Notes under the pieces: generated by a model
Databases searched by the model: none
What the model was told of the DNA's origin: nothing
The model's input: only the letters and a program-made list of their open reading frames with translations
Made by a program: the position numbers and the translations under genes
In this document: one piece after another, positions 36,823-61,518 of the stretch
How positions within the stretch are numbered: position 1 is the first letter of the stretch
Layout of the letters: every line of letters starts with the position of its first letter
Assembly: GCA_963796875.1 (NCBI GenBank)
Contig: CAWCNL010000004.1
Coordinates: 203,397 to 267,396, forward strand
DNA length: 64,000 nucleotides
From: an uncultured Actinomycetes bacterium
Lineage (GTDB): Bacteria; Actinomycetota; Thermoleophilia; Gaiellales; JAICJC01
Reading direction: 5' to 3'

Positions 36823-37078
36823 CTACAAGGGTAGTAACGTCTGGCGCAGGGCCTGGAAAACTGCGGGTTTGGGGGTAGCAGGTGTCGGGCGGTGGTTCCG
36901 GGCGGTGGCAGGTCGAAGCCGGGCGACTGCTTGGGACGTGATGAGTGCGCCGGGGCGTATGTCAACCGGCGCGAAGTCGAACACGCCCCCAGGGTCGGGC
37001 GATCCGGTGTGCTCCCCTCCCGAGCAGCCTACTACCGCGATGGAAGCCAACAAAACCGCCGATACCCAAATCCTCGGC
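36823..37078 (-). CDS. Short lipoprotein-like ORF or fragment (85 aa)
   Basis: MPRIWVSAVLLASIAVVGCSGG lipobox. The C-terminal third is encoded by degenerate R49 repeat sequence, so it may be a remnant. Confidence 0.3.
36861..36930 (+). repeat. R49 interspersed repeat, two degenerate or truncated copies
   Basis: ctgcgggtttgggggtagcagg and tgtcgggcggtggttccgggcggtggcaggtcgaagccgggcgactgc. Confidence 0.6.
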
Positions 37079-37148
37079 ATACCCCAGGGTACGTTCCTTA
37101 GCGGTCTCCCCGTCCCCAGGCACCGCACATTGCTGCACTCTGCCCGAA

Positions 37149-37248
37149 GTCGCTACTGGTTCGCGGCCGGTGGCAGGCCGTGGCTGAAGCTTGACCACCT
37201 GGTGCTGCGGCTGGTTCGGGGGCGGTGACGGGCGATGGCTCGACCGTG
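37149..37248 (+). repeat. R49 repeat, two tandem copies
   Basis: gtcgctactggttcgcggccggtggcaggccgtggctgaagcttgacc followed by gctgcggctggttcgggggcggtgacgggcgatggctcgaccgtg. Confidence 0.85.
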
Positions 37249-37502
37249 CTCAAGCGCGAGCTGGTTGATCCCGATCAGGTTTCGCGTGGCTGCCTCGATA
37301 GCGCAGCCGTAGCTTGCCCTTGACCGACATATCAAACTTGCTATAAATAGCATATGAGCTATATCTCATCCCGGTCGCAAGTTCGGATAACGCGATGACC
37401 GCCATCACCTATCTGGAGCTCGCCGGGTCGGCCATTGCGATCGGCTGGCTCGCGTGGCGGGCTCGAATCAACTCCGCCAAGTTGCCTGCCGATACGGTCG
37501 TG

Positions 37503-38471
37503 ATGAGGCCGCTGCGATGTCTGGTGGTTGGGATACTGGTCGTGGCTGCGGCTGGTTGTGGAAACACGCCGAGCAGTCCGTCCGCTGCGCAGTGCATGCA
37601 GGCATGGAACAAGGGGAACAGTTCGACCAATGGGCTGGTCGGCCGAGACGTCTGGGCTGTCGGGTATTCGAACACCAACGGCGCTGATGAGCCCAGCACG
37701 GTTGGCTGCTTCATGACGTTCGCTCTCGGGGGCGGACGGTACGTGATGTTCGAGCCCGACAGAGACGAAAGCTACGACGAGAAGTCTTCAGCAAAGCAGA
37801 TCGCCGCGACCGGGCTCGACTTTCAACCCGACACCACCGTCAGCCCGGTCATCGTGCTGACCACTGCCCAACTCGCGGCAGTGAATCAGGGCGCGGCCCC
37901 CATCCAGCCCTACCCTGGCGGTACCCCCACCGGATGTCAGGACGACGACGGGACGGTGCACCCGAGCGGCGGTTGCTCACCGCATGACCCGAGCGTTACT
38001 TCCGACGGGATCCAGACACAAATCGCGGACACTTCCAGGGACACGATGATCGCCACGATCCACTGGGGGCCGATCTGGTGGCTAGGCCCCACCCTCGAGG
38101 GAGCGCCGGTCGTGGGCGGGGGTGGAGGGAAACTGGTGCAGGGAGACAACGGGCGACGGGTCTGGTACCAAGTTCAATCCGGTGGGCACTCATGGCAGAT
38201 CGGCGTAATCACGCTCGATCGCGCCCACCCGACAATCCCAAAGTGCCCATTCTGGAACCCCATCTACTACGCACCAATCTGCCAGGGCACAACCCAGCTC
38301 GGCCAACTGATCACCACCGCCAATCCAGCCGGACGGCTGATCGCCGTCTTCGCCACCCCCGCAAACCCAGACGACAGCACACGCCTTCCACCCACACTCG
38401 TCGCTCAAATCCGCACATCCCTGACCCAGGCCACACCAACCGCCGTGATCGATATCGGACACGCCGACTGA
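37503..38471 (+). CDS. Lipoprotein, hypothetical (322 aa)
   Basis: Internal ATG of ORF 37395..38471: MRPLRCLVVGILVVAAAGCGNT lipobox. Preceded by an AT-rich region with small palindromes (TGCTAT-AA-ATAGCA; ATGAG-N6-CTCAT). Confidence 0.65.
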   Translation: MRPLRCLVVGILVVAAAGCGNTPSSPSAAQCMQAWNKGNSSTNGLVGRDVWAVGYSNTNGADEPSTVGCFMTFALGGGRYVMFEPDRDESYDEKSSAKQIAATGLDFQPDTTVSPVIVLTTAQLAAVNQGAAPIQPYPGGTPTGCQDDDGTVHPSGGCSPHDPSVTSDGIQTQIADTSRDTMIATIHWGPIWWLGPTLEGAPVVGGGGGKLVQGDNGRRVWYQVQSGGHSWQIGVITLDRAHPTIPKCPFWNPIYYAPICQGTTQLGQLITTANPAGRLIAVFATPANPDDSTRLPPTLVAQIRTSLTQATPTAVIDIGHAD

Positions 38472-38508
38472 GTCCAAGCACCCAGAGGTCGTAACGGAGC
38501 ATTACCCC

Positions 38509-38575
38509 GGCGTTGCGACTGGTTCGGGGGCGGTGGCCGACAGAAGCCGAGCGTGGCCGTGGCGTTGCGGGCGTG
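38509..38575 (+). repeat. R49 repeat, one copy plus the start of a second
   Basis: ggcgttgcgactggttcgggggcggtggccgacagaagccgagcgtggcc then gtggcgttgcgggcgtg. Confidence 0.85.
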
Positions 38576-38696
38576 AACTCAGCCAGCGGCCCGCCTCTCC
38601 ATCTACCTCCTTTGCAAACTCGGCGGGGGAAGGCTGTTGGAGGGGGTTCCTGAGGTGCAAGTCGTAACGCGTCGACCAGCCGGTCAGTGGTGGCGG

Positions 38697-41600
38697 TTAC
38701 GCCGAGGTCGCGTCTTGGGTGGTTCGAGGAGAGGCAGCGAGAAGCTGGTAGAGGGTCGCGCCGGTCTCAGCGGCGAACTCGCTGACGCCGTCGGCGTGTC
38801 GGTTGGCGTCGCTGGTACGGCCTTCTGCTGCCGCTTGGCGAGCGGCGAGCAGGTGGGCGTCGGCTGTTAGTGGGTGGCTGCCGACTTCTGCGTAGAGAGT
38901 GGCGGCTTCTGCGTATCGCATGTCTGCGGTTAGCAGGAGAGGCCGTCGCCAGCGAGAGGCCTCGGGGAGGAGGACTGCCGCGCCGCGGAGATCGTTGTGG
39001 CGGTCTAGCCAGGCGAGTGCCAGAGCGAGTTCGCAGAGGGTGATCGCAGTGTTGAACAGGCCGTGGCGGCGATGCCAGTTCGCGAGGTATCTGTCACATA
39101 CTCGCCGGGCTGTTGCGAGATCGGGTTGGAAGGTGTGTATTCGTCCCTCGAGTGCAAGGCCCTGGAACAGCAGGTAGTCGTTCTCACTGGCTGTTGCGAA
39201 CTCGGTGATCACCTTCGCGTCATCGAGAGCGTCTGTCGCGGCGCCGCGGGCGAGGCTGGTTCGCCCGCGCGTGAGGCGTATGTTGGCGTCGGTGTAGCCA
39301 TTGGTTGTTTGGATCTGCGAGATGAGAGTAAGAGCTGTGGCCCAGTCGCCGGCGTGATACAGCTGGTAGGCGCGTTGGCAGGCGATGTCTTCCAGGAAGA
39401 ACGTCTCGCCGTATCGAGAGGCCCAATCGGCAGCCGTGGCGAGCGCGTCATCAGCGGCGGCGAAGTCGCCGAGCGCCGTCATCGTTTCGGACAGGTTGCT
39501 GTACACCATGGTCGTGTAGCTATCAGAATGGGCCGCGAAGGTCTCCGCGGCGTGGCGCATGTCGGCGATGCCCGCATCGATCTCGCCGTGCTCCACTCGG
39601 GCCATGCCCCGGACTTCGAAGAGACGGGCTTGGCCGACCGCGAGCCCGGCCTGGCCCGAAGCAGCAACCATCTGCTCCGCGAGAATCGTGAGCGCCTCGT
39701 CGGTCGCTCCGGTCAGATAGAGGCGGAACGCGCGGTGGGCCGCGATCTTGCACGTGATCTCGCTGGTGGGGACATGGGCGGCGTACTCCGCCGCCTTGGC
39801 CTGGTGCGCGGCGGCATTGTCGGCGTCCCCCTCGTGGTCCTTGTACCAGTTCCCGAGCATGAGCTCGACGTGCGCGGCCGCCTCCCACGCGTAAACACCC
39901 AGCTGGGCGTCGATGACCTCGCGGAAGAACTCGACGTCAACGGTGTCGCTGCCGTTGTAGAGCGCGCGGGCCTCGCCGAAGAGCAGTGCGGGTCGCTGGG
40001 GATGGTCTGCTGGGGTGAGTTCGATCGCGGCGTGGTAGTGACGCGCTGCCGCTGACCATGCATAGACAGCTGACGCCTGCTCGGCTGCCTCCGCAAATGC
40101 GGCTCTGGCCCTGGCTGTGAGTGGGGTGGTGTCCTCGCCGAGCAGCCGGCGGAGTTGCAGCGCTTGGTGGTAGTGGTCGGCGAGTAGCTCGGCCTTGTCC
40201 TCTCGGTGCGCGGCGTGCTGTTCGATCCAGGCCGCGGCTGCTTCGTGTTTTTGGGCGCGTTGAGCGCGACGGATCTGTGAGTAGGCGACGTCTCTTGTGA
40301 GCGCGTGGCCGAACGTGAACTCGGTCTCGCCGTCGAGTGAGCTTCGCCGTTCGCGCACCACCAGCTGCTTTCGTTCCAGAGCGTGGAGGAGTTCCTCGGC
40401 GTCCCAGGTGCTCCGCTTGGTCAGCGCACATACAGCTCCGATCCACGCGGTTCGTCCGATCACTGCGGCGTCCTGTATGAGCGACTTCTGGTCGGGGGAG
40501 AGCGCGTCGAGGCGGGCTGCGATGATGCCCTGGATCGTCTCTGGTAGGTCGGTGATCTGGCCCGCGAGGTCCCATCCTGTGTGGTGGTGGACGAGAAGGT
40601 CGCGGTCTTGCAGCATCCGCACGTATTCCTGGGCGTACAGTGGATTGCCGTCGGCGTGTTGCACGAGCGCGTGCTGGATCTCGGCCGGGAGCAGTGTCTG
40701 CTGGAGCAGCCCTCCCACCAGCCGGGCGGTGTCCTGATCGGAGAGTGGTGTGAGCATCAAAGTGTGCGCGTTGGTCTTGCCGCCGGCCCAGCCTGGGCGT
40801 CGCTCCAAGAGCTCGGGCCGCGCCGTGCACACGATGAGTAGCGGCACCGCGCCCCCGCGGTCAGCCATGAGGTCGATGAAATCGAGCAGCGCGTCGTCGG
40901 CCCAGTGGATGTCCTCAAACGCAAGCACCGTCGGCCCGGCCTCCGCCAGAGCCTCCAAGAACCGGCGCCACGCTGCGAACGCCTCGCCCCGACCACCCTC
41001 CGACCCGGTGGTCACGGCCTCGAGGCCTACGAGCGGGCCAAGATGGCGCGCCACCCATTCCGTGTCGCGCTGCGCCAAGCAGATCGCATCGACCGCTTCG
41101 TGGAGCTTTGCTCTAGCCACATCGGCCGTGTCGGACTCCAGGATCCCAGCCTGCAGCTTGATCATCTCTCCCAGCGCCCAAAACGCGATCCCCTCTCCGT
41201 AGGCCAGCGACCGGCCCCGCCGCCAGGTGACCAGCTCGGGCACCTCGCCGACATACGCATACAGCTCGTCAACAAGTCGCGATTTACCGATCCCCGGCTC
41301 GCCGATCACCGAAACGAGCTGCGTCGACGATTCGTCGCGGGAGCGCTCCCACGTTTCGACCAGTAGTCCTCGCTCACGGCCACGGCCGACCAGCGGCAGC
41401 CGGTCGCGATACTGCTCGGGAACGATCGAACGTGGCGCTCGCGCAACCCATACCCGGACAGGTTCGGACTTCCCTTTCGCCGCGACCGGTTCAGCGTCGT
41501 CATACTGGATCGCACGGCTCGTCGAACGATACGTCGAAGCGTCCACCAGCACCCTGTCGGTGGGCGCGGCGGCCTCAAGCCGCGCCGCCGTGTTTACGAC

Positions 41601-42062
41601 ATCCCCGATCGCATCGGGGTGGCCGTCGGCCGGGAGCGTCACGACCACCTCTCCGGTCGTGATCCCGACGCGCACGTGTAGGTCACCTCTCAGATCTCCA
41701 ACCCGGTTGCAGATCGCGAGGCCACAACGCACCGCTCGTTCGGGGTCGTCCTCGTGAGCCACGAAAGCCCCGAAAAGCGCCATCACCCCGTCGCCGGTGA
41801 ACTTCGCGACCAACCCGCCGGTGCGCTCCACCTCCTCGCGCAGCACCGCGAAGTACGGATCGAGAAACCCCTCGACGTCCTCCACGTCCAGGCTCTCCGA
41901 CCGCCGCGTGAACCCCGCCAGGTCGGCAAACAGCGTAGTGACAACGCGACGCTCGCGACGCTCCGTAACCTCACTGTCAAGACGCGTGCCGCACTCCGAA
42001 CAGAACTTCGCCGCCGCTGGAACAGCGACCCCACACTGTGGACACGACGCCGGCGCCATCAC
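38697..42062 (-). CDS. Zinc-ribbon / class III adenylyl-guanylyl cyclase / STAND (AAA_16-type) ATPase / TPR-repeat protein, paralog A (1121 aa)
   Basis: CPQCG..CSECG. Cyclase motifs FADLAGFT, KFTGDGVMALFG, GDVVNTAARLE. Walker A GEPGIGKSRLV. Walker B VLAFEDIHWADDALLDF. Long helical-repeat C-terminal half. No HTH seen. Confidence 0.9.
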   Translation of the reverse strand: MMAPASCPQCGVAVPAAAKFCSECGTRLDSEVTERRERRVVTTLFADLAGFTRRSESLDVEDVEGFLDPYFAVLREEVERTGGLVAKFTGDGVMALFGAFVAHEDDPERAVRCGLAICNRVGDLRGDLHVRVGITTGEVVVTLPADGHPDAIGDVVNTAARLEAAAPTDRVLVDASTYRSTSRAIQYDDAEPVAAKGKSEPVRVWVARAPRSIVPEQYRDRLPLVGRGRERGLLVETWERSRDESSTQLVSVIGEPGIGKSRLVDELYAYVGEVPELVTWRRGRSLAYGEGIAFWALGEMIKLQAGILESDTADVARAKLHEAVDAICLAQRDTEWVARHLGPLVGLEAVTTGSEGGRGEAFAAWRRFLEALAEAGPTVLAFEDIHWADDALLDFIDLMADRGGAVPLLIVCTARPELLERRPGWAGGKTNAHTLMLTPLSDQDTARLVGGLLQQTLLPAEIQHALVQHADGNPLYAQEYVRMLQDRDLLVHHHTGWDLAGQITDLPETIQGIIAARLDALSPDQKSLIQDAAVIGRTAWIGAVCALTKRSTWDAEELLHALERKQLVVRERRSSLDGETEFTFGHALTRDVAYSQIRRAQRAQKHEAAAAWIEQHAAHREDKAELLADHYHQALQLRRLLGEDTTPLTARARAAFAEAAEQASAVYAWSAAARHYHAAIELTPADHPQRPALLFGEARALYNGSDTVDVEFFREVIDAQLGVYAWEAAAHVELMLGNWYKDHEGDADNAAAHQAKAAEYAAHVPTSEITCKIAAHRAFRLYLTGATDEALTILAEQMVAASGQAGLAVGQARLFEVRGMARVEHGEIDAGIADMRHAAETFAAHSDSYTTMVYSNLSETMTALGDFAAADDALATAADWASRYGETFFLEDIACQRAYQLYHAGDWATALTLISQIQTTNGYTDANIRLTRGRTSLARGAATDALDDAKVITEFATASENDYLLFQGLALEGRIHTFQPDLATARRVCDRYLANWHRRHGLFNTAITLCELALALAWLDRHNDLRGAAVLLPEASRWRRPLLLTADMRYAEAATLYAEVGSHPLTADAHLLAARQAAAEGRTSDANRHADGVSEFAAETGATLYQLLAASPRTTQDATSA

Positions 42063-42230
42063 GACCCCGAGCGTACCTTGCCACCTGCGATCTGAACAAC
42101 CAATCGGGTCGTGCTTTGCTCTTTTGGGCGGTAGCCTGCATCGGCGTGTGGAAGCTGGGCAAGTGGATCCCCTGAGAGCCTCGGTACGTAGGTCAGAATC
42201 GCTGAGTGTGGCTGCGTTGCAGTGTCCGAT

Positions 42231-43883
42231 CTATGGAGTGGCGGGTCCCGTGAGTTCGTCGAGTCGTTGGTCGATGATGCTGGCGACTGACGCGCGGGTG
42301 CCGACGTGCCCTGTGAGGGCGAGCAGGAATGGTTCGCGTTCGAGGGCGTAGAGGTCGGCGTCGGTGTGAGCGATGACTGTGGCTGTTCGCGGCATGTTGC
42401 GGATCAGAGCGATTTCGCCCACGCCTTCGGCGCGGCTTCGGGCTACGACGACAGCGTCGTTCTTCAAGACATCGAGCTGGCCGCGCGCGATCGCGTAGTA
42501 ACGGTCGCCGGGATCGCCCTCGCGGATGACGACCGTTCCTGCCGGCACTTGCAGAGGCGTCAGTGATTTGGCGAGTGTCTCCAGCGCCGGTGCGGGGAGT
42601 GCCTCGAACAATGGGATCGATCGCAACAGGCGAAGCTCGACCACGGGCACCGTGGCCGCGGCGTCCAACGCACGGAGTCGGGGGGCGAGCACCGCAACTG
42701 TGAGGACCACGATCAACGCTGTCCCGACCATCGCGCCGTTGACACCCCAGAGGCCGACCAGGATTGGCACGATCGTCACGCCTATCGCGAGGCCAGCGCA
42801 GATTAGGCCTTCCAGCATCCCGAACACCTGCGCCAACACGCGGGGTGGTGCGGTGCGCTGCAGCAGTGTACGGCCGGTCACGTCGAACACGCCCCGGCTG
42901 AGGCCCGCCACGGTAAACAGGATCAGCGCACTTGCGACCGTCGTGTAGCCGGCCAGCAGCAGAAGTGCGACCGGCCCAGCCAGCCCCGCGGCGATGAGCA
43001 TCGGTGCCTGGCGGCGCCCGCCCACCATCAGGCCGGTGATCGCGATTGCAAGCAATCCGCCCGCTCCGGCGGCGGCCGTCAGATAGCCCGCGCCGCCCTG
43101 CCCCATCCCCAACTCGCCGACTGCGAGCACAACGTAGATCAGATCCAGCGCGCCCACCAGCACGTACTGTGCGCCGAGCACTGCGACGAGGGTGAGCACT
43201 GCTGGGTTATCGGCCAGAAGCTGAAGACCGCCAACCGCGTCCCGCCCACCGGAATCGCTACCGGAAGACTCCACGTACGGGCGCGGCCCCGGGATCGTGG
43301 CGATCAGGAGCGACGCCACAAGGGCGAGGACAACCATTGCACTGACGGCTGCGGCTGGTCCGCTTGAGTTCAGCAGCACGGCGACGCCGATCGGTGTGAC
43401 CAGTGTGGCCGCGCTCTCCAGCCAACCCTGCCCTGCGTTGGCTGCCGCGAGTTCTGCGGGTGATGTCACCACCGATGGCAACAACACGGCCTGCGCCGGG
43501 CGCGGTACACAGATCGCGAGGTTGACAATCGGAGCCAGTGCGAACACGAGGAACCGCGGCGCGCCCGTCGCCATCAACAGGGCCACACCGGCCATCGACA
43601 ACCCCAGGGCCACATACCCCCACAGCAACACGCGGCCGGGTCGGTACCGGTCGGCCAGCGCACCGAGCCGAGTGGCGAGCAGAGCGCCGGGAACAAGCTG
43701 CACGAGCGCCATCACGCTCGCAGCCCTGGCACCCCCGCCGCTGCCATATGCATAGACGATCAGCACGACCCAGACACCCATGATCGCTCCGACGAATGCC
43801 GTGTAGGCGATTCCCACCCGCAGTAGCGTCCGGTTCCGGGCCGCCGAACCGAACACGCCGGCCGAGGCTCGCAGGCGATCCAT
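42231..43883 (-). CDS. MFS transporter fused to a C-terminal cyclic-nucleotide-binding (CAP/cNMP) domain
   Basis: 550 aa. About 400 aa of TM helices, then LRSIPLFEALPAPALETLA...IREGDPGDRYYAI...GVGEIALIRNMPRTATVIA (FGE-L/I-AL ... RTA phosphate-binding cassette). Confidence 0.9.
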   Translation of the reverse strand: MDRLRASAGVFGSAARNRTLLRVGIAYTAFVGAIMGVWVVLIVYAYGSGGGARAASVMALVQLVPGALLATRLGALADRYRPGRVLLWGYVALGLSMAGVALLMATGAPRFLVFALAPIVNLAICVPRPAQAVLLPSVVTSPAELAAANAGQGWLESAATLVTPIGVAVLLNSSGPAAAVSAMVVLALVASLLIATIPGPRPYVESSGSDSGGRDAVGGLQLLADNPAVLTLVAVLGAQYVLVGALDLIYVVLAVGELGMGQGGAGYLTAAAGAGGLLAIAITGLMVGGRRQAPMLIAAGLAGPVALLLLAGYTTVASALILFTVAGLSRGVFDVTGRTLLQRTAPPRVLAQVFGMLEGLICAGLAIGVTIVPILVGLWGVNGAMVGTALIVVLTVAVLAPRLRALDAAATVPVVELRLLRSIPLFEALPAPALETLAKSLTPLQVPAGTVVIREGDPGDRYYAIARGQLDVLKNDAVVVARSRAEGVGEIALIRNMPRTATVIAHTDADLYALEREPFLLALTGHVGTRASVASIIDQRLDELTGPATP

Positions 43884-43996
43884 CGGCCAAGCGTATACAG
43901 GGACGCGACTCTCCCGCCCGAGCAGCCGCTGAGTGCCCGCGTGCTGCCTGAGGGTGGGCCTAGAGATCGGCGAGGCGGGCGGGGTCGCTAGCTCCT

Positions 43997-47670: not shown

Positions 47671-47805
47671 CGCCGCCACCCCCGAATCACCTGGAACGCC
47701 CGGTCAACGCTCGGCCATCGCCTGTCACCGCCCCCGAACCAGCCGGGACGCCAGGTCAACGCTCGGGCCATCGCCTGTCACCGCCCCCCGAACCAGCCGC
47801 AACAC
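47671..47805 (-). repeat. R49 repeat, three tandem copies in reverse orientation (first truncated)
   Basis: gtcaacgctcggccatcgcctgtcaccgcccccgaaccagccgggacgcc and gtcaacgctcgggccatcgcctgtcaccgccccccgaaccagccgcaacac. Confidence 0.9.
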
Positions 47806-47846
47806 CCGGGCCACCCCAGCACCGCCACACCGATTCGATTCGGTGA

Positions 47847-48344: not shown

Positions 48345-48508
48345 ATGACCACTACGCGCTGAGCGGCCGTCTGCGTCTCGTCGCGCACTCGCCGCGTCGC
48401 CGTCTGCTGAGCTAATCGACATAGACTGAGAGTAGATCCGCAGAACGCCCCGGTTATTATTTTCGCCTCGGACGACGCGGCTGTCCGGCCCGAGCCGCAA
48501 CCCTCGGG

Positions 48509-48667
48509 CAAGGCTCAGCCTTCGCCTGCCACTGCCTCAGAACCAGCCGTAACACCAGGCCAAGCTTCAGCCATCACCCGCCACCGCCCCCGAACCAGCC
48601 GCAACGCCAGGTCAACGCCCAGCCGTCGCCCCGCGACCCACACCGGACACCGTCGGTCGGCAACACC
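48509..48667 (-). repeat. R49 repeat, three tandem copies in reverse orientation (third degenerate)
   Basis: caagcttcagccatcacccgccaccgcccccgaaccagccgcaacgcc is the best copy (48561-48608). Confidence 0.85.
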
Positions 48668-49346: not shown

Positions 49347-49357
49347 TTGACTGCTCA

Positions 49358-49409
49358 GGGCAACGCTCGGCCATCGGCTGCTACCGCCCCCCGAACTACC
49401 CGCGAGGCG
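49358..49409 (-). repeat. R49 repeat, single reverse-orientation copy
   Basis: gggcaacgctcggccatcggctgctaccgccccccgaactacccgcgaggcg. Confidence 0.8.
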
Positions 49410-49829: not shown

Positions 49830-49922
49830 CAGTCAGGCTTGTATCGACACCGCGCCGACCGCCTTGAATCAAACGTGTTTCCGACAGGCCACGCTGCCCG
49901 ACCCTGGCTGAGGGTTGCCCGT

Positions 49923-50038
49923 CTGTTGCGGCTGGTTCGGGGGCGGTGGCAGGCGATGGCCGAACATTGAGCTGACGTTGTGGTCGGTTCGGGGGCGGTG
50001 GCAGGCGATGGTTCGACCGTGGCCTGACGTTGTCGGCT
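49923..50038 (+). repeat. R49 repeat, two tandem copies plus a partial third
   Basis: ctgttgcggctggttcgggggcggtggcaggcgatggccgaacattgagc; gacgttgtggtcggttcgggggcggtggcaggcgatggttcgaccgtggcc; gacgttgtcggct. Confidence 0.9.
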
Positions 50039-50041
50039 CAG

Positions 50042-50203
50042 TCAGAAGCTAGCGGCGACTTCGGCCAAGAGCTTCGAGATCACTTCGTCATCGAGCCCAG
50101 GCGGATCGAGCCGTACGTTCCAGGCGTACTGGAGAAGCGGGTCGTCTCCAGGTGTGTACTGCCAATCGATGATGATCTTGCCGCTTTGAGGCTGAGAATC
50201 CAT
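50042..50203 (-). CDS. Very small hypothetical protein (53 aa)
   Basis: MDSQPQSGKIIIDWQYTPGDDPLLQYAWNVRLDPPGLDDEVISKLLAEVAASF (tail of the spurious long ORF 50042..50806). Confidence 0.35.
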   Translation of the reverse strand: MDSQPQSGKIIIDWQYTPGDDPLLQYAWNVRLDPPGLDDEVISKLLAEVAASF

Positions 50204-50256
50204 CCACGCAGGGTATTCGGATTCGCGGACACCGTCGAGCGCTTCGAGATTTGACT

Positions 50257-50355
50257 GTGCATTGGGGCTGGTTCGAGGGGCGGTGGCAGGCGATCGGCCG
50301 AGCGTTGACCAGGCGTACCAGGCGGTGAGGGGCGGCGGCAGATGTCCATCGACGC
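50257..50355 (+). repeat. R49 repeat, one good and one degenerate copy
   Basis: gtgcattggggctggttcgaggggcggtggcaggcgatcggccgagcgttgacc, then aggcgtaccaggcggtgaggggcggcggcagatgtccatcgacg. Confidence 0.85.
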
Positions 50356-50417
50356 CTGCCTCCCACAGCTTGAGATCCGCCGACTCGGTGCCCAACGAAG
50401 AATGTAACCGTTGCCCT

Positions 50418-50466
50418 AAGTTGCGGCTGGTTCGGGGGCGTGGCAGGCGAGGGCCGAACCTGAGCC
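50418..50466 (+). repeat. R49 repeat, single copy
   Basis: aagttgcggctggttcgggggcgtggcaggcgagggccgaacctgagcc. Confidence 0.9.
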
Positions 50467-50508
50467 TAGGGTTGACTACGAGGTACCCGGCAATACGATG
50501 AGGGAGAT

Positions 50509-50640: not shown

Positions 50641-50665
50641 TGGCACCGCGTCGAACGTTGAGGTG

Positions 50666-50713
50666 GTGTTGCGGCTGGTTCGGGGGCGGTGGCAGACCAG
50701 AGCCGCGGTGACG
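50666..50713 (+). repeat. R49 repeat, single copy
   Basis: gtgttgcggctggttcgggggcggtggcagaccagagccgcggtgacg. Confidence 0.9.
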
Positions 50714-50721
50714 ACCCGGCC

Positions 50722-50847
50722 CTAGCTTCGCCTGAGCGAACGGGCGGCCAGCGTAAGAACAACCGCGACGATCGCGACCAAGACCAGCAGGATCAGGACG
50801 ATCCACGCCTGGCTGGTCGAGATGGCGGTCAACATCAAAGGAAGCAT
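50722..50847 (-). CDS. Tiny single-TM protein (41 aa)
   Basis: MLPLMLTAISTSQAWIVLILLVLVAIVAVVLTLAARSLRRS*. Confidence 0.35.
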   Translation of the reverse strand: MLPLMLTAISTSQAWIVLILLVLVAIVAVVLTLAARSLRRS

Positions 50848-50882
50848 ACGCCGGGCCGACGGGGAGATCCAGCGTTGCCCTG

Positions 50883-50995
50883 GCGCGTTGCGGCTGTGTC
50901 GGGAGCGGCGGCGGATCGACACCGAGCGTTACGGTGGCGCGATGAAACAGGTCGGCGGCGGGTTCGGGGGCGGTGGCAGGCCGAAGCTGAACGTC
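50883..50995 (+). repeat. R49 repeat, two tandem diverged copies
   Basis: gcgcgttgcggctgtgtcgggagcggcggcggatcgacaccgagcgttacgg; caggtcggcggcgggttcgggggcggtggcaggccgaagctgaacgtc. Confidence 0.8.
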
Positions 50996-51034
50996 TCGGG
51001 GAACCAGGGCTGGAGCGGTAACGTCTAAGAGAGC

Positions 51035-51442
51035 GTGATGACACGGATCATCATCGCGATCTGCTTCGCCTTACTGTGTACAGTGGCCACGGTTGGCTGC
51101 GGCGGTGGAGGATCGCCGTGCACCGACTGCACGGCCCCAAGCGGAGCGACAGTAACGGGCACGGTGTTGGTGAGAACCCCGGCTGGTGGCGCGAAGCTCG
51201 TTCCACACGCCCGACTTCGAATCCACGGCTTCGCCAGCGGCACTAACCGCGCGATCAAAGCGCACTTCCGCACCGGCGATCACGGAGGATTCAGCTTTGG
51301 ACTGGGGCCCGGCCATTACACGCTGATCGCCATTACGGGGCGTCACGGTTCGCAAGCGAAAGAAACCTTCGCGGTCGCCGACTCTCTCGCGACTGTCCAT
51401 CTCCGAATTGTGGGCACAGTTCCGCCTACCACTGAGCTCTGA
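51035..51442 (+). CDS. Lipoprotein with CarboxypepD_reg/PEGA-like beta-sandwich
   Basis: MMTRIIIAICFALLCTVATVGCGGGG lipobox. GTVLVRTPAGG...GPGHYTLIAI. Confidence 0.6.
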   Translation: MMTRIIIAICFALLCTVATVGCGGGGSPCTDCTAPSGATVTGTVLVRTPAGGAKLVPHARLRIHGFASGTNRAIKAHFRTGDHGGFSFGLGPGHYTLIAITGRHGSQAKETFAVADSLATVHLRIVGTVPPTTEL

Positions 51443-51446
51443 TCTA

Positions 51447-51498
51447 GAGCGTTGCGGCTGGTTCGGGGGCGGTGGCAGGCGATGGCCGAGCGTCGACC
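51447..51498 (+). repeat. R49 repeat, near-consensus copy
   Basis: gagcgttgcggctggttcgggggcggtggcaggcgatggccgagcgtcgacc. Confidence 0.95.
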
Positions 51499-51521
51499 GG
51501 GTGTGTAGCTGGGTTCCCGTG

Positions 51522-55500: not shown

Positions 55501-55913
55501 TCCCCCGTCGTGATCCCAACCCGCACATGCAACCCCGTGCCCAGCCCGACCGACGCGCTCGCAGATGCGAGGCCACAGCGGACGGCTCGCTCCGGGATCG
55601 TCCTCGCGCGTTGTCGATCGCACCAAACAACGCCATCACGCCGTCGCCGGTGAACTTCGCCACCAACCCACCCGTGCGCTCGACCTCCTCTCGCAGGACC
55701 GCGAAATACGGATCGAGGAACCCCTCCACATCCTCGACATCCAAGCGTCTCAGACCGCCGCGTAAACCCGGCCAGGTCGGCAAACAGCATTGTGACGATT
55801 CGCCGCTCACGGCGCTCTGCCGCCGCGAGAGTCTCAAGCGGCGCGCCACAGGCCCCACAGAACCGGAACCCCTCAGGATTCTCCGTCCCACACTGCGAAC
55901 AGACCGGCATCAC
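52566..55913 (-). pseudogene. Third zinc-ribbon / cyclase / STAND / TPR paralog (C), decayed by many frame breaks
   Basis: N-terminus MMPVCSQCGTENPEGFRFCGACG...RIVTMLFADLAGFTRRSETL (ORF 55080..55913). Further pieces are scattered over ORFs 55493..55891, 55016..55309, 54493..55104, 53646..54746, 54035..54442, 53608..54207, 52649..53566 and 52566..52877, all colinear with paralog A. Confidence 0.85.
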
Positions 55914-56043: not shown

Positions 56044-56093
56044 GCGTCGATGGGCTCGGTTCGGGGGGTGGCAGGCGATGGCCGAGCGTTGCC
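56044..56093 (+). repeat. R49 repeat, single copy
   Basis: gcgtcgatgggctcggttcggggggtggcaggcgatggccgagcgttgcc. Confidence 0.85.
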
Positions 56094-56115
56094 GCTCGTC
56101 GCGAAAGGGGACGTT

Positions 56116-57177
56116 TTACGCTGTGCGTGCGCGGCGTCGTCGGATGAGTGCCACGATGCCTGCGGCTACGGCGAGTGTGGCGATACCCGCAGCGCCGAGT
56201 GCCCAGGTCGCGCCCTCGTCGTTTGGTGCAGAAGGTGCCGGTGGGAGGGCGGTGATTGTGACCGGGCCGCCGCTCGATGCGATCCGGTTCCGAGCGAATA
56301 GCGTGAACCTGACCCTTCCTCGTCGGTTGACCTTGACCTGTACCGTGCCCCTGGAGGTTCGGGCTACTGCTGCGATGCGTTTGGCCGCTGGGATCACGCT
56401 GACGCCGTCGAAGTCGGAAGCCTTGACGATCACGTCCTTGAGTGGCAGCGGGTTGAGATTGTGGATCGTGTACGGCACGGTGACGGTGTCTCCCATGTGC
56501 ACGCTGCCAAGATCGCGAGTGGACACGCGAAGGTCGAGTGGTTCGGGTACGAGCTTCGTCGCCAAGACGACGACCTTGGGTGCAGTGACGCTGGCAAGGC
56601 GGATATCGTCGATCTCCTGGACGCTCATCTTGAGGATGTTGACGCCTCGCCGAACGGCGCTCAGGGAGGGGAAGTTTGCGACCGGGACGGTGAACATCGT
56701 TGAGTGCTCGACGTGCTCGGTGTAGCCGCGCACGATGTCGAGGGTGTTCCAGTCAATCCTCTGCCCGGCCCGGTCGCGCTGGAATACCTCGATCTGTCCC
56801 CAGGTGTGGCCGTTTGACCCGATGCCGATCACTGCTTCACCCGGGCCAGAGTCTGGCGCGAGCCTGACCTGGATATCGGTCGCCATAATCCACCAGCCTG
56901 GGTGGGGTCGGTGGATCGTGTTGGAGAGCCGATAGGGCAGCCGGGCGAGACGGTAGTCACGCTCGCCAGCGCCGACGGTGATCGGCCCGGATGCTCCGAC
57001 CGGCGTCGCAACGCCGTTGCCCAGCTCGTTCTGAAACGCCTTACTCACCTCGGGCGGTAAAGGCGTGTCGGAGTCCGACCCGAGCGCGGTTCCCCCACCA
57101 CAGGCCAGCGCCATCGCCGTTGCGCCAACGGAGACAAACGTCCGTCGCCGCCTGACCCTGGTAGCTTCAGTCCGCAC
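56116..57177 (-). CDS. Cell-surface protein: lipoprotein-type signal, beta-rich body, C-terminal TM anchor with Arg-rich tail
   Basis: GTG 57177: VRTEATRVRRRRTFVSVGATAMALACGGG. C-terminus WALGAAGIATLAVAAGIVALIRRRRARTA*. Confidence 0.6.
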   Translation of the reverse strand: MRTEATRVRRRRTFVSVGATAMALACGGGTALGSDSDTPLPPEVSKAFQNELGNGVATPVGASGPITVGAGERDYRLARLPYRLSNTIHRPHPGWWIMATDIQVRLAPDSGPGEAVIGIGSNGHTWGQIEVFQRDRAGQRIDWNTLDIVRGYTEHVEHSTMFTVPVANFPSLSAVRRGVNILKMSVQEIDDIRLASVTAPKVVVLATKLVPEPLDLRVSTRDLGSVHMGDTVTVPYTIHNLNPLPLKDVIVKASDFDGVSVIPAAKRIAAVARTSRGTVQVKVNRRGRVRFTLFARNRIASSGGPVTITALPPAPSAPNDEGATWALGAAGIATLAVAAGIVALIRRRRARTA

Positions 57178-57190
57178 CGCGAGAACATAG

Positions 57191-57271
57191 CCTGGTGGTC
57201 GGTTGGCAGTCGGACGAAAACCCGGCCCGGCGTTGCGACTGCGGCAGAGACTCTGCCGTGGCGGTGTCAAG
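57191..57271 (+). repeat. R49 repeat, degenerate copies
   Basis: cctggtggtcggttggcagtcggacg and ggcgttgcgactgcggcagagactctgccgtggcggtgtcaag. Confidence 0.5.
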
Positions 57272-57908: not shown

Positions 57909-57942
57909 CGCTGCCGATTCCGTCGACGGCCGCCGAACCTGG

Positions 57943-57994
57943 CAGCGTTGCGGCTGGTTCGGGAGCGGTGGCAGGCGATGGCCGAGCGTTGGCC
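57943..57994 (+). repeat. R49 repeat, near-consensus copy
   Basis: cagcgttgcggctggttcgggagcggtggcaggcgatggccgagcgttggcc. Confidence 0.95.
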
Positions 57995-58028
57995 GCGGTG
58001 TGACGGGTTGGCGGCCCTTGGTGCTGGT

Positions 58029-60218: not shown

Positions 60219-60442
60219 CTGGCCTTCGAGATCAGTCGGATGTCCTCGCGCTGCTGGATGAGTTCATCGTACGCCCATGGGTACGCTGCGTGGATGCCAA
60301 ACGGACACGCAAGGGATTCGGTTCGTGGCGATCTCGCGGCAGGAGACGCGGTGTTCTCGCCCGCCGCCGATCAGCAGTACCGGACAGCGACAGTCGATCT
60401 GAGTCCCTAAAGGCGCGGTTTGCGCCGACCGATAGGCAGGCT

Positions 60443-60796
60443 ATGAAGAAGATGCTGGTCGTCGCGCTTGTGGTCGTCGTCGGACTCCTGGCCTACACGC
60501 GCCTTTCGGCCTCGGCATCGGAACACCGTCGGGCGATCGACACGGTGAAAACCGTGGCTGCCGGACCTGACCAGCTCGAAAACGTCAGCTGCACCGACTA
60601 TGGGAAGCGCCAGATCGATGTGATCGGAACCGCTTCGCTTTGGTCGTGCTCCTGGGTTAACGGCACCACCGGCGAGTTCAACCGCGGTTGTGTCGTTCTG
60701 AGCGGGAAGATCCCCGGCGTTAACGGTACCGGAACGATTATCAAGTCGTGCGAGCACCCCACACTCAACACGTCCGGCTCCGGTTCATCGTCCTAA
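60443..60796 (+). CDS. Small secreted protein (117 aa)
   Basis: MKKMLVVALVVVVGLLAYTRLSASA signal; Cys-containing body. Confidence 0.5.
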   Translation: MKKMLVVALVVVVGLLAYTRLSASASEHRRAIDTVKTVAAGPDQLENVSCTDYGKRQIDVIGTASLWSCSWVNGTTGEFNRGCVVLSGKIPGVNGTGTIIKSCEHPTLNTSGSGSSS

Positions 60797-60824
60797 CCAC
60801 GGCCGACGGTACCTAGCCACTCAG

Positions 60825-60869
60825 GTAGATCGCCTCGGTCGAGGTGGCAGGCGATGACCGAGCTTGCCG
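60825..60869 (+). repeat. R49 repeat, diverged copy
   Basis: ggtagatcgcctcggtcgaggtggcaggcgatgaccgagcttgccg. Confidence 0.6.
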
Positions 60870-60887
60870 AGGCATCGCATCGGGGCT

Positions 60888-61322
60888 ATGGTGAGCATTG
60901 TGATATCCGCCTCGATTTCGTCGGCCGGTGCATTGTATGTCGCTGATGCAGGGTCGACGATTGATGTGATGGTGGTAGTCATGGCTGTGGTTGGCGTGGT
61001 TCTGGCCGTTCTCGCCGTGATCCCGTGGCAGCCGTTGGGCAGGCTAGAGGCTCTGGTGGCTGCGGTTCTCGTCCTTGTGGCAAGCACGTTTGGTGTGCTA
61101 ATCCTGGGGTCTTCGGCGTCGATCTACGCCGACGGCTCGACACACTGGGACCACACGCCGCACGGCGCGGCGGTTCTCGGCGGAGTCTGTGCGGTCGTGG
61201 CCCTGGCGATCCTCCTGAGCGCACGCACCGCGCCTGTGCTGATGAGAGTCGGCCTGGCCGTCGGATCGTTAGGGACGATGCTGCTGACTGCGAGTCAGTT
61301 TGCCTACCACACCCCTGGCTGA
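60888..61322 (+). CDS. Membrane protein, hypothetical (about 4 TM)
   Basis: MVSIVISASISSAGALYV...VMVVVMAVVGVVLAVLAVIPW... (internal ATG of ORF 60864..61322). Confidence 0.55.
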   Translation: MVSIVISASISSAGALYVADAGSTIDVMVVVMAVVGVVLAVLAVIPWQPLGRLEALVAAVLVLVASTFGVLILGSSASIYADGSTHWDHTPHGAAVLGGVCAVVALAILLSARTAPVLMRVGLAVGSLGTMLLTASQFAYHTPG

Positions 61323-61381
61323 GCGTTGCCCGGCATTCCAGGCGGTTCGGGGGCGGTGGCAGGCGATGGCCGAGCTTGAGG
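61321..61381 (+). repeat. R49 repeat with a small 5' insertion
   Basis: gagcgttgcccggcattccaggcggttcgggggcggtggcaggcgatggccgagcttgagg. Confidence 0.85.
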
Positions 61382-61471
61382 GAGGGTCGTGAGTGGGGCC
61401 GGAGCGTGGGGCTCCCGCCGGTGAACCGCCACAGATATCGATACCCGCGATACCCGGCGTCCACGTCAAGA

Positions 61472-61518
61472 GCGATGCGCGGTGTCGGGTTCGGGGGTGG
61501 TGTCAGGCCGCAGTTACG
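61472..61518 (+). repeat. R49 repeat, diverged copy
   Basis: gcgatgcgcggtgtcgggttcgggggtggtgtcaggccgcagttacg. Confidence 0.6.

What the first reader, a model, noticed from the sequence alone, without database searches (positions are those of the whole stretch)
36861..61518. Dense family of a roughly 49-bp GC-rich interspersed/tandem repeat (R49), at least 25 copies in 25 kb
A unit with consensus GCGTTGCGGCTGGTTCGGGGGCGGTGGCAGGCGATGGCCGAGCGTTGAC recurs in 18 intergenic loci, as singles or as head-to-tail arrays of 2-3 copies with a period of roughly 50-58 bp. The loci are listed as features.

- Near-consensus copies sit at 51447, 57943 and 49923.
- The repeat is essentially absent from 1-36.8 kb and from inside the long genes.
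- It is not palindromic. The best internal pairing I can find is a 6-bp CGGCUG/UGGCCG stem with two G-U pairs.
- It is G-rich on one strand, with several GG/GGGGG tracts.
- It begins and ends with the same GCGTTG word, so arrays are seamless.

In size, tandem habit and intergenic placement it resembles mycobacterial MIRU/VNTR-type elements more than REP hairpins, CRISPR repeats or integron attC sites. Its function is not explained by any feature above. Candidates are a recombination site, a protein-binding site, an RNA element, or purely selfish DNA.
Basis: seen in the sequence. Interest (0 to 1): 0.75.

Follow-up and report, generated by a model that had tools for sequence, protein, structure and literature searches.

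The report
New 52-bp repeat beside lexA
A previously undescribed 52-bp, G-rich, non-palindromic DNA repeat fills the gaps between genes in a strain-variable region next to the lexA gene of an uncultured soil-type actinobacterium and its relatives, and most likely serves as a recombination substrate there rather than as an RNA or a coding element.

Summary
The repeat is real. A profile built from the copies finds 20 significant copies and about 5 degenerate ones. All lie between 36.9 and 61.5 kb, none lies in 1-36.8 kb, and all are intergenic. Tandem units have a 52-bp period.

It has no hairpin, no covariation, no Rfam match, no promoter or terminator signal, and no flanking transposase or integrase. 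It has no exact core match in GTDB representative genomes, JGI metagenomes or IMG/VR, and no blastn match in plasmids or phages.

The host is a Gaiellales-like (Thermoleophilia) metagenome-assembled genome.

The same family occurs in related genomes (LexA 80-99% identical). In the 278 kb sampled there, it is found only upstream of lexA and always in the same orientation. Gene content in that zone differs even between strains with identical LexA.

The repeat consensus is 72/73 identical between two species whose orthologous lexA-region DNA is 69% identical.

Best reading: a lineage-specific, minisatellite-like repeat acting at the DNA level as a recombination substrate in a plasticity zone. The mechanism is inferred, not shown.

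It resembles MIRUs in architecture but is not a member of that family. It is not an attC site, REP, MITE or CRISPR repeat.

The parts
36893..36933 (+). degenerate R49 copy, the first after the lexA-proximal conserved element
   Evidence: nhmmer E=0.013; sequence
37142..37258 (+). R49 doublet (37142-37196 and 37197-37258), 137 nt upstream of lipoprotein ORF 37395-38471
   Evidence: E=4.6e-6 and 2.3e-12; reproduced in the Logan contig L005
38499..38568 (+). single R49 copy between convergent genes (ORF 37395-38471 and cyclase 38697-42062)
   Evidence: E=9.6e-15
47675..47811 (-). R49 array of 2 full units plus a partial unit, period 52-54
   Evidence: TRF score 194; E=7.9e-19 and 1.9e-15
48497..48630 (-). 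R49 array of 2 units plus a partial unit, in the divergent spacer upstream of lipoprotein gene 47847-48344(-)
   Evidence: TRF score 146; E=9.7e-16 and 6.6e-14
49354..49408 (-). single R49 copy; left arm of the only inverted R49 pair
   Evidence: E=1.3e-11; inverted pair I1
49913..50031 (+). R49 doublet, period 52
   Evidence: TRF score 149; E=3.3e-17 and 6.9e-12
50044..50205 (-). 53-aa gene flanked by R49 copies; this module is shared with relative L014 (positions 160-358) at about 75-80% DNA identity
   Evidence: tblastx 71% identity over 56 aa; alignment; blastn 75% over 269 nt including the adjacent R49
50249..50341 (+). R49 copy followed by a degenerate second unit 52 nt downstream
   Evidence: E=2.6e-15; anchor spacing 52
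50408..50474 (+). single R49 copy
   Evidence: E=8.2e-14
50654..50722 (+). single R49 copy
   Evidence: E=1.1e-12
50873..50997 (+). degenerate R49 copy plus a partial copy, upstream of lipoprotein gene 51035-51442
   Evidence: E=8.7e-6 and 6.6e-9
51448..51505 (+). near-consensus R49 copy, 6 nt after the stop codon of 51035-51442
   Evidence: 1 mismatch to the consensus; E=2.9e-16
56055..56094 (+). R49 copy lacking its 5' third
   Evidence: E=8.7e-8; alignment
57943..57996 (+). near-consensus R49 copy
   Evidence: 2 mismatches; E=1.7e-15
60843..60865 (+). R49 3' half, starting at GGTGGCAGG
   Evidence: E=0.0012; alignment
61326..61378 (+). R49 copy, 4 nt after the stop codon of 60864-61322
   Evidence: E=2.5e-11
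61481..61509 (+). marginal R49 core fragment; last member of the field
   Evidence: E=0.75; D7 family member at 85%
36087..36716 (-). lexA, the conserved anchor gene; the R49 field starts on its upstream side here and in relatives
   Evidence: Pfam LexA_DNA_bind and Peptidase_S24; 209-aa product P0003; SOS box TCGAACGTGTGTTCGG at 36733-36748
36787..36881 (+). conserved non-coding element between the SOS box and the variable zone; synteny with relatives ends at or just after it
   Evidence: shared with L010, L011, L012 and L014; weak consensus fold

Best explanation
R49 is a lineage-specific, non-coding, non-palindromic 52-bp direct-repeat family of minisatellite type. Its host is an uncultured Gaiellales-like (Thermoleophilia) actinobacterium and a few related species. 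In all sequence I could examine, it is confined to the plasticity zone immediately upstream of lexA.

I propose that it works at the DNA level, not as RNA or protein.

- **Arrays.** Head-to-tail arrays grow and shrink by slipped-strand mispairing or unequal crossing-over. The shared GCGTTG unit ends make every junction seamless.
- **Dispersed copies.** The mostly co-oriented dispersed copies provide roughly 50-bp patches of near-identical sequence between genes. Gene modules can be deleted, inverted, duplicated or exchanged between strains at these patches.
- **Conserved core.** The approximately 30-bp core (GGCTGGTTCGGGGGCGGTGGCAGGCGA) suggests that a host factor recognises the sequence.

What is shown: the repeat is real, it is intergenic, it lacks structure, it is restricted to this locus and to one orientation in relatives, the zone is hypervariable, one R49-flanked module is shared, and the consensus is conserved across species.

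What is inferred: that recombination at R49 causes the variability, and that a protein recognises the core.
For: - **Distribution in the window.** There are 20 significant copies, all within 36.9-61.5 kb, none in 1-36.8 kb, and all intergenic.
- **Distribution in relatives.** In 278 kb around lexA in 17 related loci, every R49 hit lies upstream of lexA and in the same orientation relative to it. The loci are L007, L008/9, L012/13 and L014, the last with 8-9 copies in 3.4 kb.
- **Hypervariable zone.** Contigs encoding an identical LexA protein (P0011: L010, L011, L012/13, L014) carry different genes upstream of lexA, and three of them (L010, L011, L012/13) share the conserved flank on the far side. 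A strain with 99% identical LexA and 94.7% DNA identity (L007) loses synteny with the window at 36785. There it has R49 followed by an ECF sigma gene.
- **Shared module.** A small gene plus its adjacent R49 (window 50038-50305, L014 103-355) occurs in otherwise unrelated contexts.
- **Half-copies.** Truncated copies are 5' halves ending near GCGG(TGGC) in L008 and L012, or 3' halves starting near GGTGGCAGG at the L007 junction and at window 60843. In L008, one gene sits between an R49 3' fragment and a 5' partial copy.
- **Conserved consensus.** The consensus from 17 window copies and that from 7 L014 copies are 72/73 identical. Orthologous lexA-SBP DNA is 69% identical and RNase P RNA is 86% identical. 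Copies do not cluster by genome.
- **RNA-level and mobile-element signals are absent.** There is no fold better than shuffles and no covariation. There is no Rfam hit even at E<=5. There are no promoter or terminator signals and no inverted repeats apart from one pair of oppositely oriented copies. No recombinase or transposase domain was found in the island ORFs scanned.
Against: - No recombination event was actually observed with both parental and product junctions. The half-copy pattern rests on about 4-5 cases and could reflect decay or the boundaries of local alignment.
- Only lexA neighbourhoods (plus or minus 10 kb) of relatives and one 64-kb window were visible, so the locus restriction may be partly a sampling effect.
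- Plain homologous recombination does not by itself explain why the consensus stays 98.6% identical across species.
- The orthologous R49 next to the shared 53-aa gene has diverged about as much as the gene itself. Individual copies therefore do not look strongly constrained.
- Not every ORF in the island was scanned for recombinases.
Confidence: 0.42

Rival explanations
1. R49 is the recognition site (att-like) of a dedicated site-specific recombinase encoded elsewhere in the genome. The lexA-upstream zone would then be a cassette platform in which modules bounded by R49 are captured, excised and reshuffled. This is a functional analogue of integrons or dif modules, but without hairpin sites.
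For: - The field has a fixed anchor next to lexA and a fixed orientation in all genomes that carry R49.
- Small modules sit between R49 doublets in L014.
- L008 shows a 3'-fragment, gene, 5'-partial arrangement, and half-copies break near one point in the core.
- One module is shared between species.
- The consensus is conserved at 72/73 positions.
Against: - No recombinase gene was found in the window ORFs scanned.
- Genes between repeats run in both directions.
- Exact head-to-tail arrays with no cargo are not expected from cassette insertion.
- R49 has no inverted-repeat arms such as recombinase dimers usually bind.
- Only one shared module was seen.
Confidence: 0.15
2. R49 is an array of binding sites for a sequence-specific DNA-binding protein, such as a regulator, a nucleoid-associated protein or a silencer of acquired DNA. 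Its role would be to organise or repress the variable region.
For: - An asymmetric core of about 30 bp is much better conserved than the unit flanks (information profile; invariant columns).
- The consensus is conserved across species.
- The tandem period of 52 bp equals five helical turns, which would place bound proteins on one face of the helix. This last point is inference.
- All copies are intergenic.
Against: - No candidate binding protein was identified.
- Copies occur in 5', 3', convergent and divergent spacers with no consistent relation to promoters.
- Many copies are degenerate in the core.
Confidence: 0.15
3. R49 is a selfish, non-autonomous mobile element copied from a master sequence by an enzyme acting in trans. 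It would have no host function. Its clustering would reflect local hopping or tolerance of insertions in a dispensable region.
For: - Copies show a star-like relationship, with most nearest to the near-consensus copies, and they do not cluster by genome.
- The consensus is identical across species, as expected for an active master or for horizontal spread.
- Each single copy is flanked by the GAGCGTTGACC word on both sides.
Against: - There are no terminal inverted repeats and no variable target-site duplications. No transposase, RAYT or reverse transcriptase was seen nearby.
- Exact 21-24-mer cores are absent from GTDB representative genomes, JGI metagenomes and IMG/VR, and blastn finds nothing in plasmids or phages.
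- No filled-versus-empty site pair was found.
Confidence: 0.12
4. R49 acts in RNA. Possible roles are a UTR element, a G-quadruplex on the G-rich strand, or an unstructured C-rich Rho-utilisation (rut) site on the other strand.
For: - The core has a G4Hunter score of 1.33-1.4, within the top 1.6% of windows.
- The C-rich strand is C-rich, G-poor and unusually unstructured: 198 of 200 shuffles fold at least as well.
- Nine of about 14 loci place the C-rich strand in the 3' region of a neighbouring gene (derived).
Against: - There is no consensus structure and no covariation, and no Rfam match.
- Only two-quartet G4s are possible and there is no G3 motif.
- Orientation relative to flanking genes is mixed, and about as many loci place the G-rich strand in a 3' region.
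- There are no terminator or promoter signals.
Confidence: 0.08

Closest known systems
Mycobacterial interspersed repetitive units (MIRU/VNTR)
   Same: Both are GC-rich actinobacterial repeats of roughly 40-100 bp. Both occur as single units or short head-to-tail arrays in intergenic DNA, without CRISPR-like spacers (description of MIRUs from PMC3184786; R49 data).
   Different: - The host is a Gaiellales-like lineage, not Mycobacterium.
- MIRUs are described as lying inside operons, with ORFs that overlap the neighbouring genes' stop and start codons, and as having imperfect terminal and internal inverted repeats (PMC3184786). R49 often lies between convergent or divergent genes, does not overlap start or stop codons and has no inverted repeats.
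- MIRUs are dispersed at about 40-50 sites. R49 is concentrated at one locus in the sequence available.
- Sequence homology to MIRU consensus sequences was not tested.
Neisserial intergenic mosaic elements (NIME/dRS3) and pneumococcal BOX elements
   Same: These are arrays of short repeat units in intergenic DNA at sites of genome plasticity. They are thought to promote recombination, for example at silent pilin loci, and BOX has a tandemly iterated boxB module (PMC3184786).
   Different: - NIME units are bounded by 20-bp inverted dRS3 repeats, and BOX folds into stable structures. R49 has neither.
- There is no sequence similarity, and the hosts belong to a different phylum.
Integron attC sites (for example VCR arrays of chromosomal integrons)
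   Same: Both are families of similar repeats of roughly 50-130 bp that separate mostly orphan, strain-variable genes in one chromosomal locus. In both, the array is anchored at one end and the repeats share one orientation.
   Different: - attC sites are imperfect palindromes (R''/L'' and L'/R') that fold as hairpins and carry RYYYAAC/GTTRRRY cores next to intI and attI. R49 has only direct GTTG words, no hairpin, and no intI nearby.
- Genes between R49 copies run in both directions, and R49 forms cargo-free tandem arrays.
Repeat-bounded modular islands: tycheposon att arrays in Prochlorococcus and pdif modules in Acinetobacter plasmids
   Same: These are hypervariable regions built of modules, each bounded by copies of a short site. 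The modules are shuffled between strains, and in dif modules the recombinase is encoded elsewhere (bioRxiv 10.1101/2020.12.28.424599; PMC6449649).
   Different: - Tycheposon repeats are partial tRNA genes left by integrases. There is no tRNA in this window and R49 is not tRNA-like.
- pdif sites are 28-bp XerC/XerD sites with dyad symmetry, which R49 lacks.

Membership tests
MIRU/VNTR | Direct repeats of about 40-100 bp, single or in short tandem arrays, in intergenic DNA | tested here: met
   52-bp period, 1-3 units per locus, all significant copies intergenic
MIRU/VNTR | Located within operons, with small ORFs in the unit overlapping the stop and start codons of the flanking genes (Supply 1997, as summarised in PMC3184786) | tested here: not met
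   Many loci lie between convergent or divergent genes. Apart from end contacts with two uncertain small-ORF boundaries, copies are 4-520 nt from gene ends, and none overlaps a flanking gene's start or stop codon in that way
MIRU/VNTR | Occurs in Mycobacterium and is homologous to MIRU class I-III consensus sequences | tested here: not met
   The nearest named relatives by LexA are Gaiellales MAGs. A direct alignment to MIRU consensus sequences was not done because no MIRU sequence was available in the tools
MIRU/VNTR | Copy-number polymorphism at a given locus between strains | not testable with these tools
   No second strain with the same flanking genes was retrievable. L005 comes from the same population and is identical in copy number
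Integron attC | Imperfect inverted repeats (R''-L''/L'-R') that fold as a hairpin on one strand | tested here: not met
   Units fold no better than shuffles on either strand; 7 weak consensus pairs with no compensatory changes
Integron attC | Adjacent intI tyrosine recombinase and attI, with cassettes co-oriented | tested here: not met
   No recombinase domain in the scanned ORFs of 36-64 kb. Genes between repeats lie on both strands. Not every small ORF was scanned
REP/BIME/REPIN | Palindrome of about 20-40 bp forming a GC-rich stem-loop, often in inverted doublets, with an associated RAYT transposase | tested here: not met
   No stem-loop. Copies are direct, with only one inverted pair in 25 kb. 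No Y1 transposase domain was found
MITE | Terminal inverted repeats and target-site duplications; long stem-loop when folded | tested here: not met
   No terminal inverted repeats and no hairpin. The flanking GCGTTGAC words are the same in all copies, so they are part of the unit and not variable target-site duplications
CRISPR | Identical repeats regularly interspaced by unique spacers of similar length; cas genes | tested here: not met
   Units are either directly adjacent (period 52) or 100 bp to 9 kb apart, with genes between them. No cas domains were found
Xer/dif-type module sites | 28-bp site with two 11-bp arms of partial dyad symmetry around a 6-bp spacer | tested here: not met
   No dyad symmetry within the unit
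Any curated RNA family (Rfam 15) | Match to a covariance model | tested here: not met
   Only RNase P in the window at gathering score. Nothing overlaps R49 at E<=5

The most novel reading that the evidence does not exclude
R49 is the recombination site of a previously unknown cassette-type gene-shuffling system. The system would be anchored at a fixed platform upstream of lexA in a clade of uncultured Thermoleophilia. Modules encoding cell-envelope proteins and signalling or defence genes would be captured and exchanged at a defined crossover point in the GGGGGCGG^TGGCAGG core. The recombinase would be encoded elsewhere, and expression or recombination could be coupled to the adjacent SOS-controlled promoter region. 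This would be a functional analogue of integrons that uses non-hairpin, direct-repeat sites.
Probability: 0.12. Interest if true: 0.85.

Novelty: new variant of a known kind. Interest (0 to 1): 0.5.

Why it matters
Short intergenic repeat families are common in bacteria, so the existence of one more is not surprising. Three things lift this one above routine.

- It comes from a poorly known, uncultured actinobacterial lineage and matches nothing described so far.
- In every genome where it could be seen, it sits in one place and one orientation. That place is the strain-variable zone upstream of lexA, which in relatives also collects restriction-modification, Hachiman and cyclase genes.
- Its consensus is almost unchanged between species whose neighbouring genes have diverged by about 30%. 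That points to sequence-specific recognition or an active source copy.

If the repeat turns out to mark recombination breakpoints, it would give a concrete, testable handle on how flexible-genome hot spots are built in soil actinobacteria known mainly from metagenomes. If it does not, it is simply a new minisatellite, useful at most as a strain-typing marker.

Tried and rejected
- **Structured RNA or hairpin element.** Rejected. RNAalifold gave 7 weak pairs with no compensatory change. Single units and arrays fold no better than shuffles, except one array at z=-2. Rfam gave nothing.
- **Coding repeat.** Rejected. A 52-bp period is not a multiple of 3.
- **Searching for translated arrays.** A synthetic translation of the repeat found nothing among 5.8 billion proteins. 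A window ORF that runs through an array found nothing among 1.84 billion representatives.
- **Finding the family elsewhere by exact core words.** GTDB representative genomes gave 4 chance hits, JGI metagenomes gave 1 chance hit and IMG/VR gave 0. Plasmid and phage blastn gave no match.
- **What did work.** Fetching lexA neighbourhoods of LexA homologues.
- **Integron, REP, MITE, CRISPR and dif.** Each fails a defining feature; see the membership tests.
- **tRNA-anchored integrative island.** No tRNA or tmRNA in the window.
- **R49 derived from, or complementary to, another sequence in the window such as RNase P.** Only chance matches of up to 11 nt.
- **Promoter or terminator function.** No signal within the units.
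- **Recombinase among the orphan ORFs.** Pfam, NCBIfam, PHROGs and PADLOC gave nothing relevant. By sequence inspection, the orphans look like lipoproteins, membrane proteins or secreted proteins. I therefore did not spend structure predictions on them.
- **Source contig.** I could not retrieve the 376-kb source contig or more of the relatives' genomes. One last look-up returned no DNA.

Full report

Yes. No match appeared in 100 shuffles.

Tandem Repeats Finder reports three arrays with a 52-bp period, at 47679-47803, 48493-48631 and 49934-50033. Gap-free repeat families give 9-10 members.

An nhmmer profile built from seven copies was refined with 26 copies from the window and from relatives. 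It finds 20 copies with E<0.01. About five further degenerate or partial units lie at about 36893, 47670, 48619, 50322 and 61481.

No copy lies in 1-36.8 kb. The only hit inside a long gene has E=0.56.

In a gene model based on GC3 frame bias, Pfam hits and signal-peptide or transmembrane features, intergenic DNA is 22% of 36.7-62.85 kb. All significant copies lie in intergenic DNA, apart from end contacts with two uncertain small-ORF boundaries, and they occupy about 1.2 kb of its 5.7 kb.

The full unit is 52 bp: GGCGTTGCGGCTGGTTCGGGGGCGGTGGCAGGCGATGGCCGAGCGTTGACCT. Single copies usually carry the GAGCGTTGACC word on both sides.

Fourteen loci have the G-rich strand on the plus strand. Three loci, at 47.7-49.4 kb, are inverted.

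An independent short-read assembly (Logan ERR11594399, L005) matches window 36778-41805 at 99.9%, including three copies. The repeat is therefore not an assembly artefact.

**2. What it is not**

- **Not a hairpin or structured RNA.** Consensus units fold worse than most shuffles on both strands (z=+1.1 and +2.0). Arrays give z between -2.0 and +1.6. RNAalifold finds seven weak pairs with no compensatory change.
- **Not a known RNA family.** Rfam finds only RNase P RNA (33989-34332) in the window. Nothing overlaps R49 even at E<=5.
- **Not a promoter or terminator.** No such consensus lies in the units.
- **Not a MITE-like pair.** The only inverted pair is the point where orientation switches, at 49355-49391 and 49939-49975.
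- **Not tRNA-linked.** There is no tRNA or tmRNA in the window.
- **Not coding.** The 52-bp period excludes a coding repeat.
- **Weak G-quadruplex potential.** G4Hunter scores 1.33-1.4 for the core, only two-quartet G4s are possible, and there is no G3 motif.
- **No mobile-element enzymes nearby.** ORFs of the region were scanned against Pfam, NCBIfam, PHROGs and PADLOC. They include:
  - LexA;
  - two intact and one fragmented Zn-ribbon / class III cyclase / AAA_16 genes;
  - a membrane protein with a cNMP-binding domain;
  - a family-5 solute-binding protein;
  - many orphans which, by sequence inspection, look like lipoproteins, membrane proteins or secreted proteins.

  No integrase, transposase, RAYT, reverse transcriptase or Cas domain was seen.

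**3. Where it comes from and where else it occurs**

Exact 21-24-nt core words are absent from one genome per GTDB species (4 chance hits), from JGI metagenomes (1 chance hit) and from IMG/VR (0 hits). Plasmid and phage collections give no blastn match.

The lipoprotein ORF 37395-38471 has no homologue other than itself among 5.8 billion proteins.

A LexA search shows that the closest named relatives are Gaiellales MAGs, class Thermoleophilia. The source is a MAG contig of 376,558 bp.

I fetched DNA around LexA homologues, 278 kb in total. R49 is present in:

- L007 (LexA 99% identical): 1.5 copies.
- L008 and L009 (83%): a 5' partial copy and a 3' fragment flanking one lipoprotein gene.
- L012 and L013 (80%): a 5' partial copy.
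- L014 (80%): 8-9 copies in 3.4 kb, as doublets and triplets separated by small orphan genes.

All these copies lie upstream of lexA and share one orientation relative to lexA. That is the same orientation as the majority of copies in the window.

No copy was found downstream of lexA, or in L010, L011 or L015-L023.

**4. The surroundings are a plasticity zone**

Synteny between the window and all relatives covers only about 33.9-36.8 kb: RNase P RNA, a solute-binding protein, a 78-aa ORF and lexA. It stops just upstream of the lexA SOS box, TCGAACGTGTGTTCGG at 36733-36748.

Five contigs encode the identical LexA protein P0011 yet carry four different gene sets upstream of lexA. Three of those versions (L010, L011, L012/13) share the same far flank, a TetR regulator and an amino-acid permease.

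L007 is 94.7% identical to the window in the lexA region. It switches at window position 36785 to different DNA: R49 followed by an ECF sigma factor gene.

The window's zone has lower GC3 (about 0.70-0.80) than most of 1-36 kb (about 0.80-0.93).

In relatives, the flanks of lexA also hold a restriction-modification system, Hachiman genes, an Mrr-helicase and more cyclase-ATPase genes.

One module is shared between species. Window 50038-50305 contains a 53-aa gene on the minus strand plus the adjacent R49. It is 75% identical to L014 103-355, and the contexts are otherwise unrelated.

**5. Signs of how the repeat behaves**

- **Arrays.** Head-to-tail arrays with 51-55-bp spacing occur both in the window and in L014. 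Arrays of this kind typically arise by slippage or unequal crossing-over. This step is inference.
- **Half-copies.** Truncated copies come as 5' halves ending near GCGG(TGGC) in L008 and L012. They also come as 3' halves beginning near GGTGGCAGG at the L007 junction and at window 60843. In L008 a single gene lies between a 3' fragment and a 5' partial copy. This would fit breakage and joining inside the core. It rests on only 4-5 cases, however, and could instead reflect decay.
- **Consensus conservation.** Copies do not cluster by genome. Mean core identity is 76% within the window, 68% within L014 and 73% between them, and most copies are closest to the near-consensus ones. The majority consensus from 17 window copies and that from 7 L014 copies agree at 72 of 73 positions. 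By comparison, orthologous lexA-SBP DNA is 69% identical and RNase P RNA is 86% identical. A neutrally decaying family should not keep its consensus like this. Possible explanations are selection for a recognised sequence, continual copying from a conserved source, or horizontal spread.
- **Core.** The best-conserved part is an asymmetric core of about 30 bp, GGCTGGTTCGGGGGCGGTGGCAGGCGA.
- **Helical phasing.** 52 bp equals five helical turns. This is an observation only, and its significance is inferred.

**6. Most likely explanation**

R49 is a new, lineage-specific minisatellite-like repeat that acts at the DNA level in the lexA-upstream plasticity zone. Arrays change by slippage. Dispersed, mostly co-oriented copies give short patches of homology, or a recognised site, at which modules can be lost, inverted or swapped.

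- **Shown:** the repeat is real and intergenic, it lacks structure, it is restricted to one locus and orientation in the sequence available, the zone is hypervariable, one module is shared, and the consensus is conserved.
- **Inferred:** R49 is the cause of, or the site of, the rearrangements, and a protein recognises it.

I put this reading at about 0.4. Rivals are:

| Rival | Probability |
|---|---|
| True att-like site of an unseen recombinase | 0.15 |
| Protein-binding array with a regulatory or nucleoid role | 0.15 |
| Selfish element copied in trans | 0.12 |
| RNA-level role (G4 or rut-like) | 0.08 |

**7. Comparison with known systems**

In architecture R49 is closest to MIRUs, but it fails MIRU membership on host lineage, operon context and ORF overlap. 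Homology to MIRU consensus sequences was not tested.

In genomic role it is closest to plasticity-zone repeats such as NIME/dRS3. It also resembles repeat-bounded module systems: integron attC arrays, tycheposon att arrays and pdif modules. It lacks the defining site structure of each of these (see the membership tests; PMC3184786, bioRxiv 10.1101/2020.12.28.424599, PMC6449649).

**8. Verdict and limits**

The finding is genuine and the family is undescribed. I class it as a new variant of a known kind, namely bacterial intergenic interspersed or tandem repeats at plasticity zones. Interest is moderate (0.5).

- The repeat class itself is ordinary.
- The fixed lexA-proximal location and orientation across species, together with the unusually conserved consensus, are unexpected. 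They make a cassette-type recombination system a live but unproven possibility (about 0.12).

The main limits are these. Only lexA neighbourhoods of relatives and one 64-kb window could be examined. No parental and product junction pair was observed. Not every small ORF was screened.

Noticed in passing
window 36787-36881: A non-coding element of about 95 nt (GCGGGAAAGGAGGTAGATGGA...GGGTAGCAACGTC...GGGGGTAGC) lies between the lexA SOS box and the variable zone. It is conserved in L010, L011, L012 and L014 (LexA 80%). In L007 (LexA 99%) and L008/9 it is replaced by a different element of about 45 nt. It contains a Shine-Dalgarno sequence and an ATG, but the downstream reading frames are not conserved. 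The consensus fold is weak.
   Followed up: partly
window 38697-47353 and about 52600-55913: There are two intact paralogous genes (1121 and 1118 aa) and one fragmented paralogue, each encoding Zn-ribbon, class III nucleotide cyclase and AAA_16 domains. They flank a 550-aa membrane protein (MFS-type) with a C-terminal cNMP-binding domain. PADLOC gives domain-level hits to Pycsar cyclases and effectors. The same cyclase type lies next to lexA in L016, L017, L019-L021 and L023. The frameshifts in the third copy could be real decay or long-read errors.
   Followed up: partly
window 36733-36748: An actinobacterial-type SOS box, TCGAACGTGTGTTCGG, lies 17-32 nt upstream of the GTG start of lexA (36087-36716, minus strand). 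It is conserved in all relatives (TCGAACATGTGTTCGA).
   Followed up: partly
window 33989-34332 (-): Bacterial class A RNase P RNA (Rfam, 278.7 bits), 86% identical to the copy in L014. It is part of the small syntenic core next to lexA.
   Followed up: no
window 8586-9555: Seven coding repeats with a period of 147-156 nt lie inside ORF 8208-9629. They carry a WG-N-GQLGDG motif, which looks like an RCC1-type beta-propeller. That assignment is from memory; no family search confirmed it.
   Followed up: no
L010-L014 (upstream of lexA); L014 8783-12102; L019 5304-7309; L023 1098-4274: Contigs encoding the identical LexA protein carry four different gene sets upstream of lexA, and three of those sets (L010, L011, L012/13) share a common far flank. 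The flanks of lexA in relatives hold Hachiman (HamA plus helicase), a restriction-modification pair and an Mrr-helicase. The lexA neighbourhood is therefore a hot spot for variable and defence genes in this clade.
   Followed up: partly
window 37395-38471, 47847-48344, 51035-51442, 56116-57270, 60290-60796: By sequence inspection, most ORFs between R49 copies look like lipoproteins (lipobox after a signal peptide), small membrane proteins or secreted proteins, with no detectable homologues. ORF 37395-38471 matches only itself among 5.8 billion proteins.
   Followed up: partly
window about 61900-62467 and 62850-64000: A possible subtilisin-inhibitor-like (SSI) small protein (Pfam E=2.6e-4, below the curated cut-off) and what looks, by sequence inspection only, like an MFS transporter running off the window end lie just beyond the last R49 copy. 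GC content returns to about 0.69 here, so the island probably ends near 61.5-62.8 kb.
   Followed up: no
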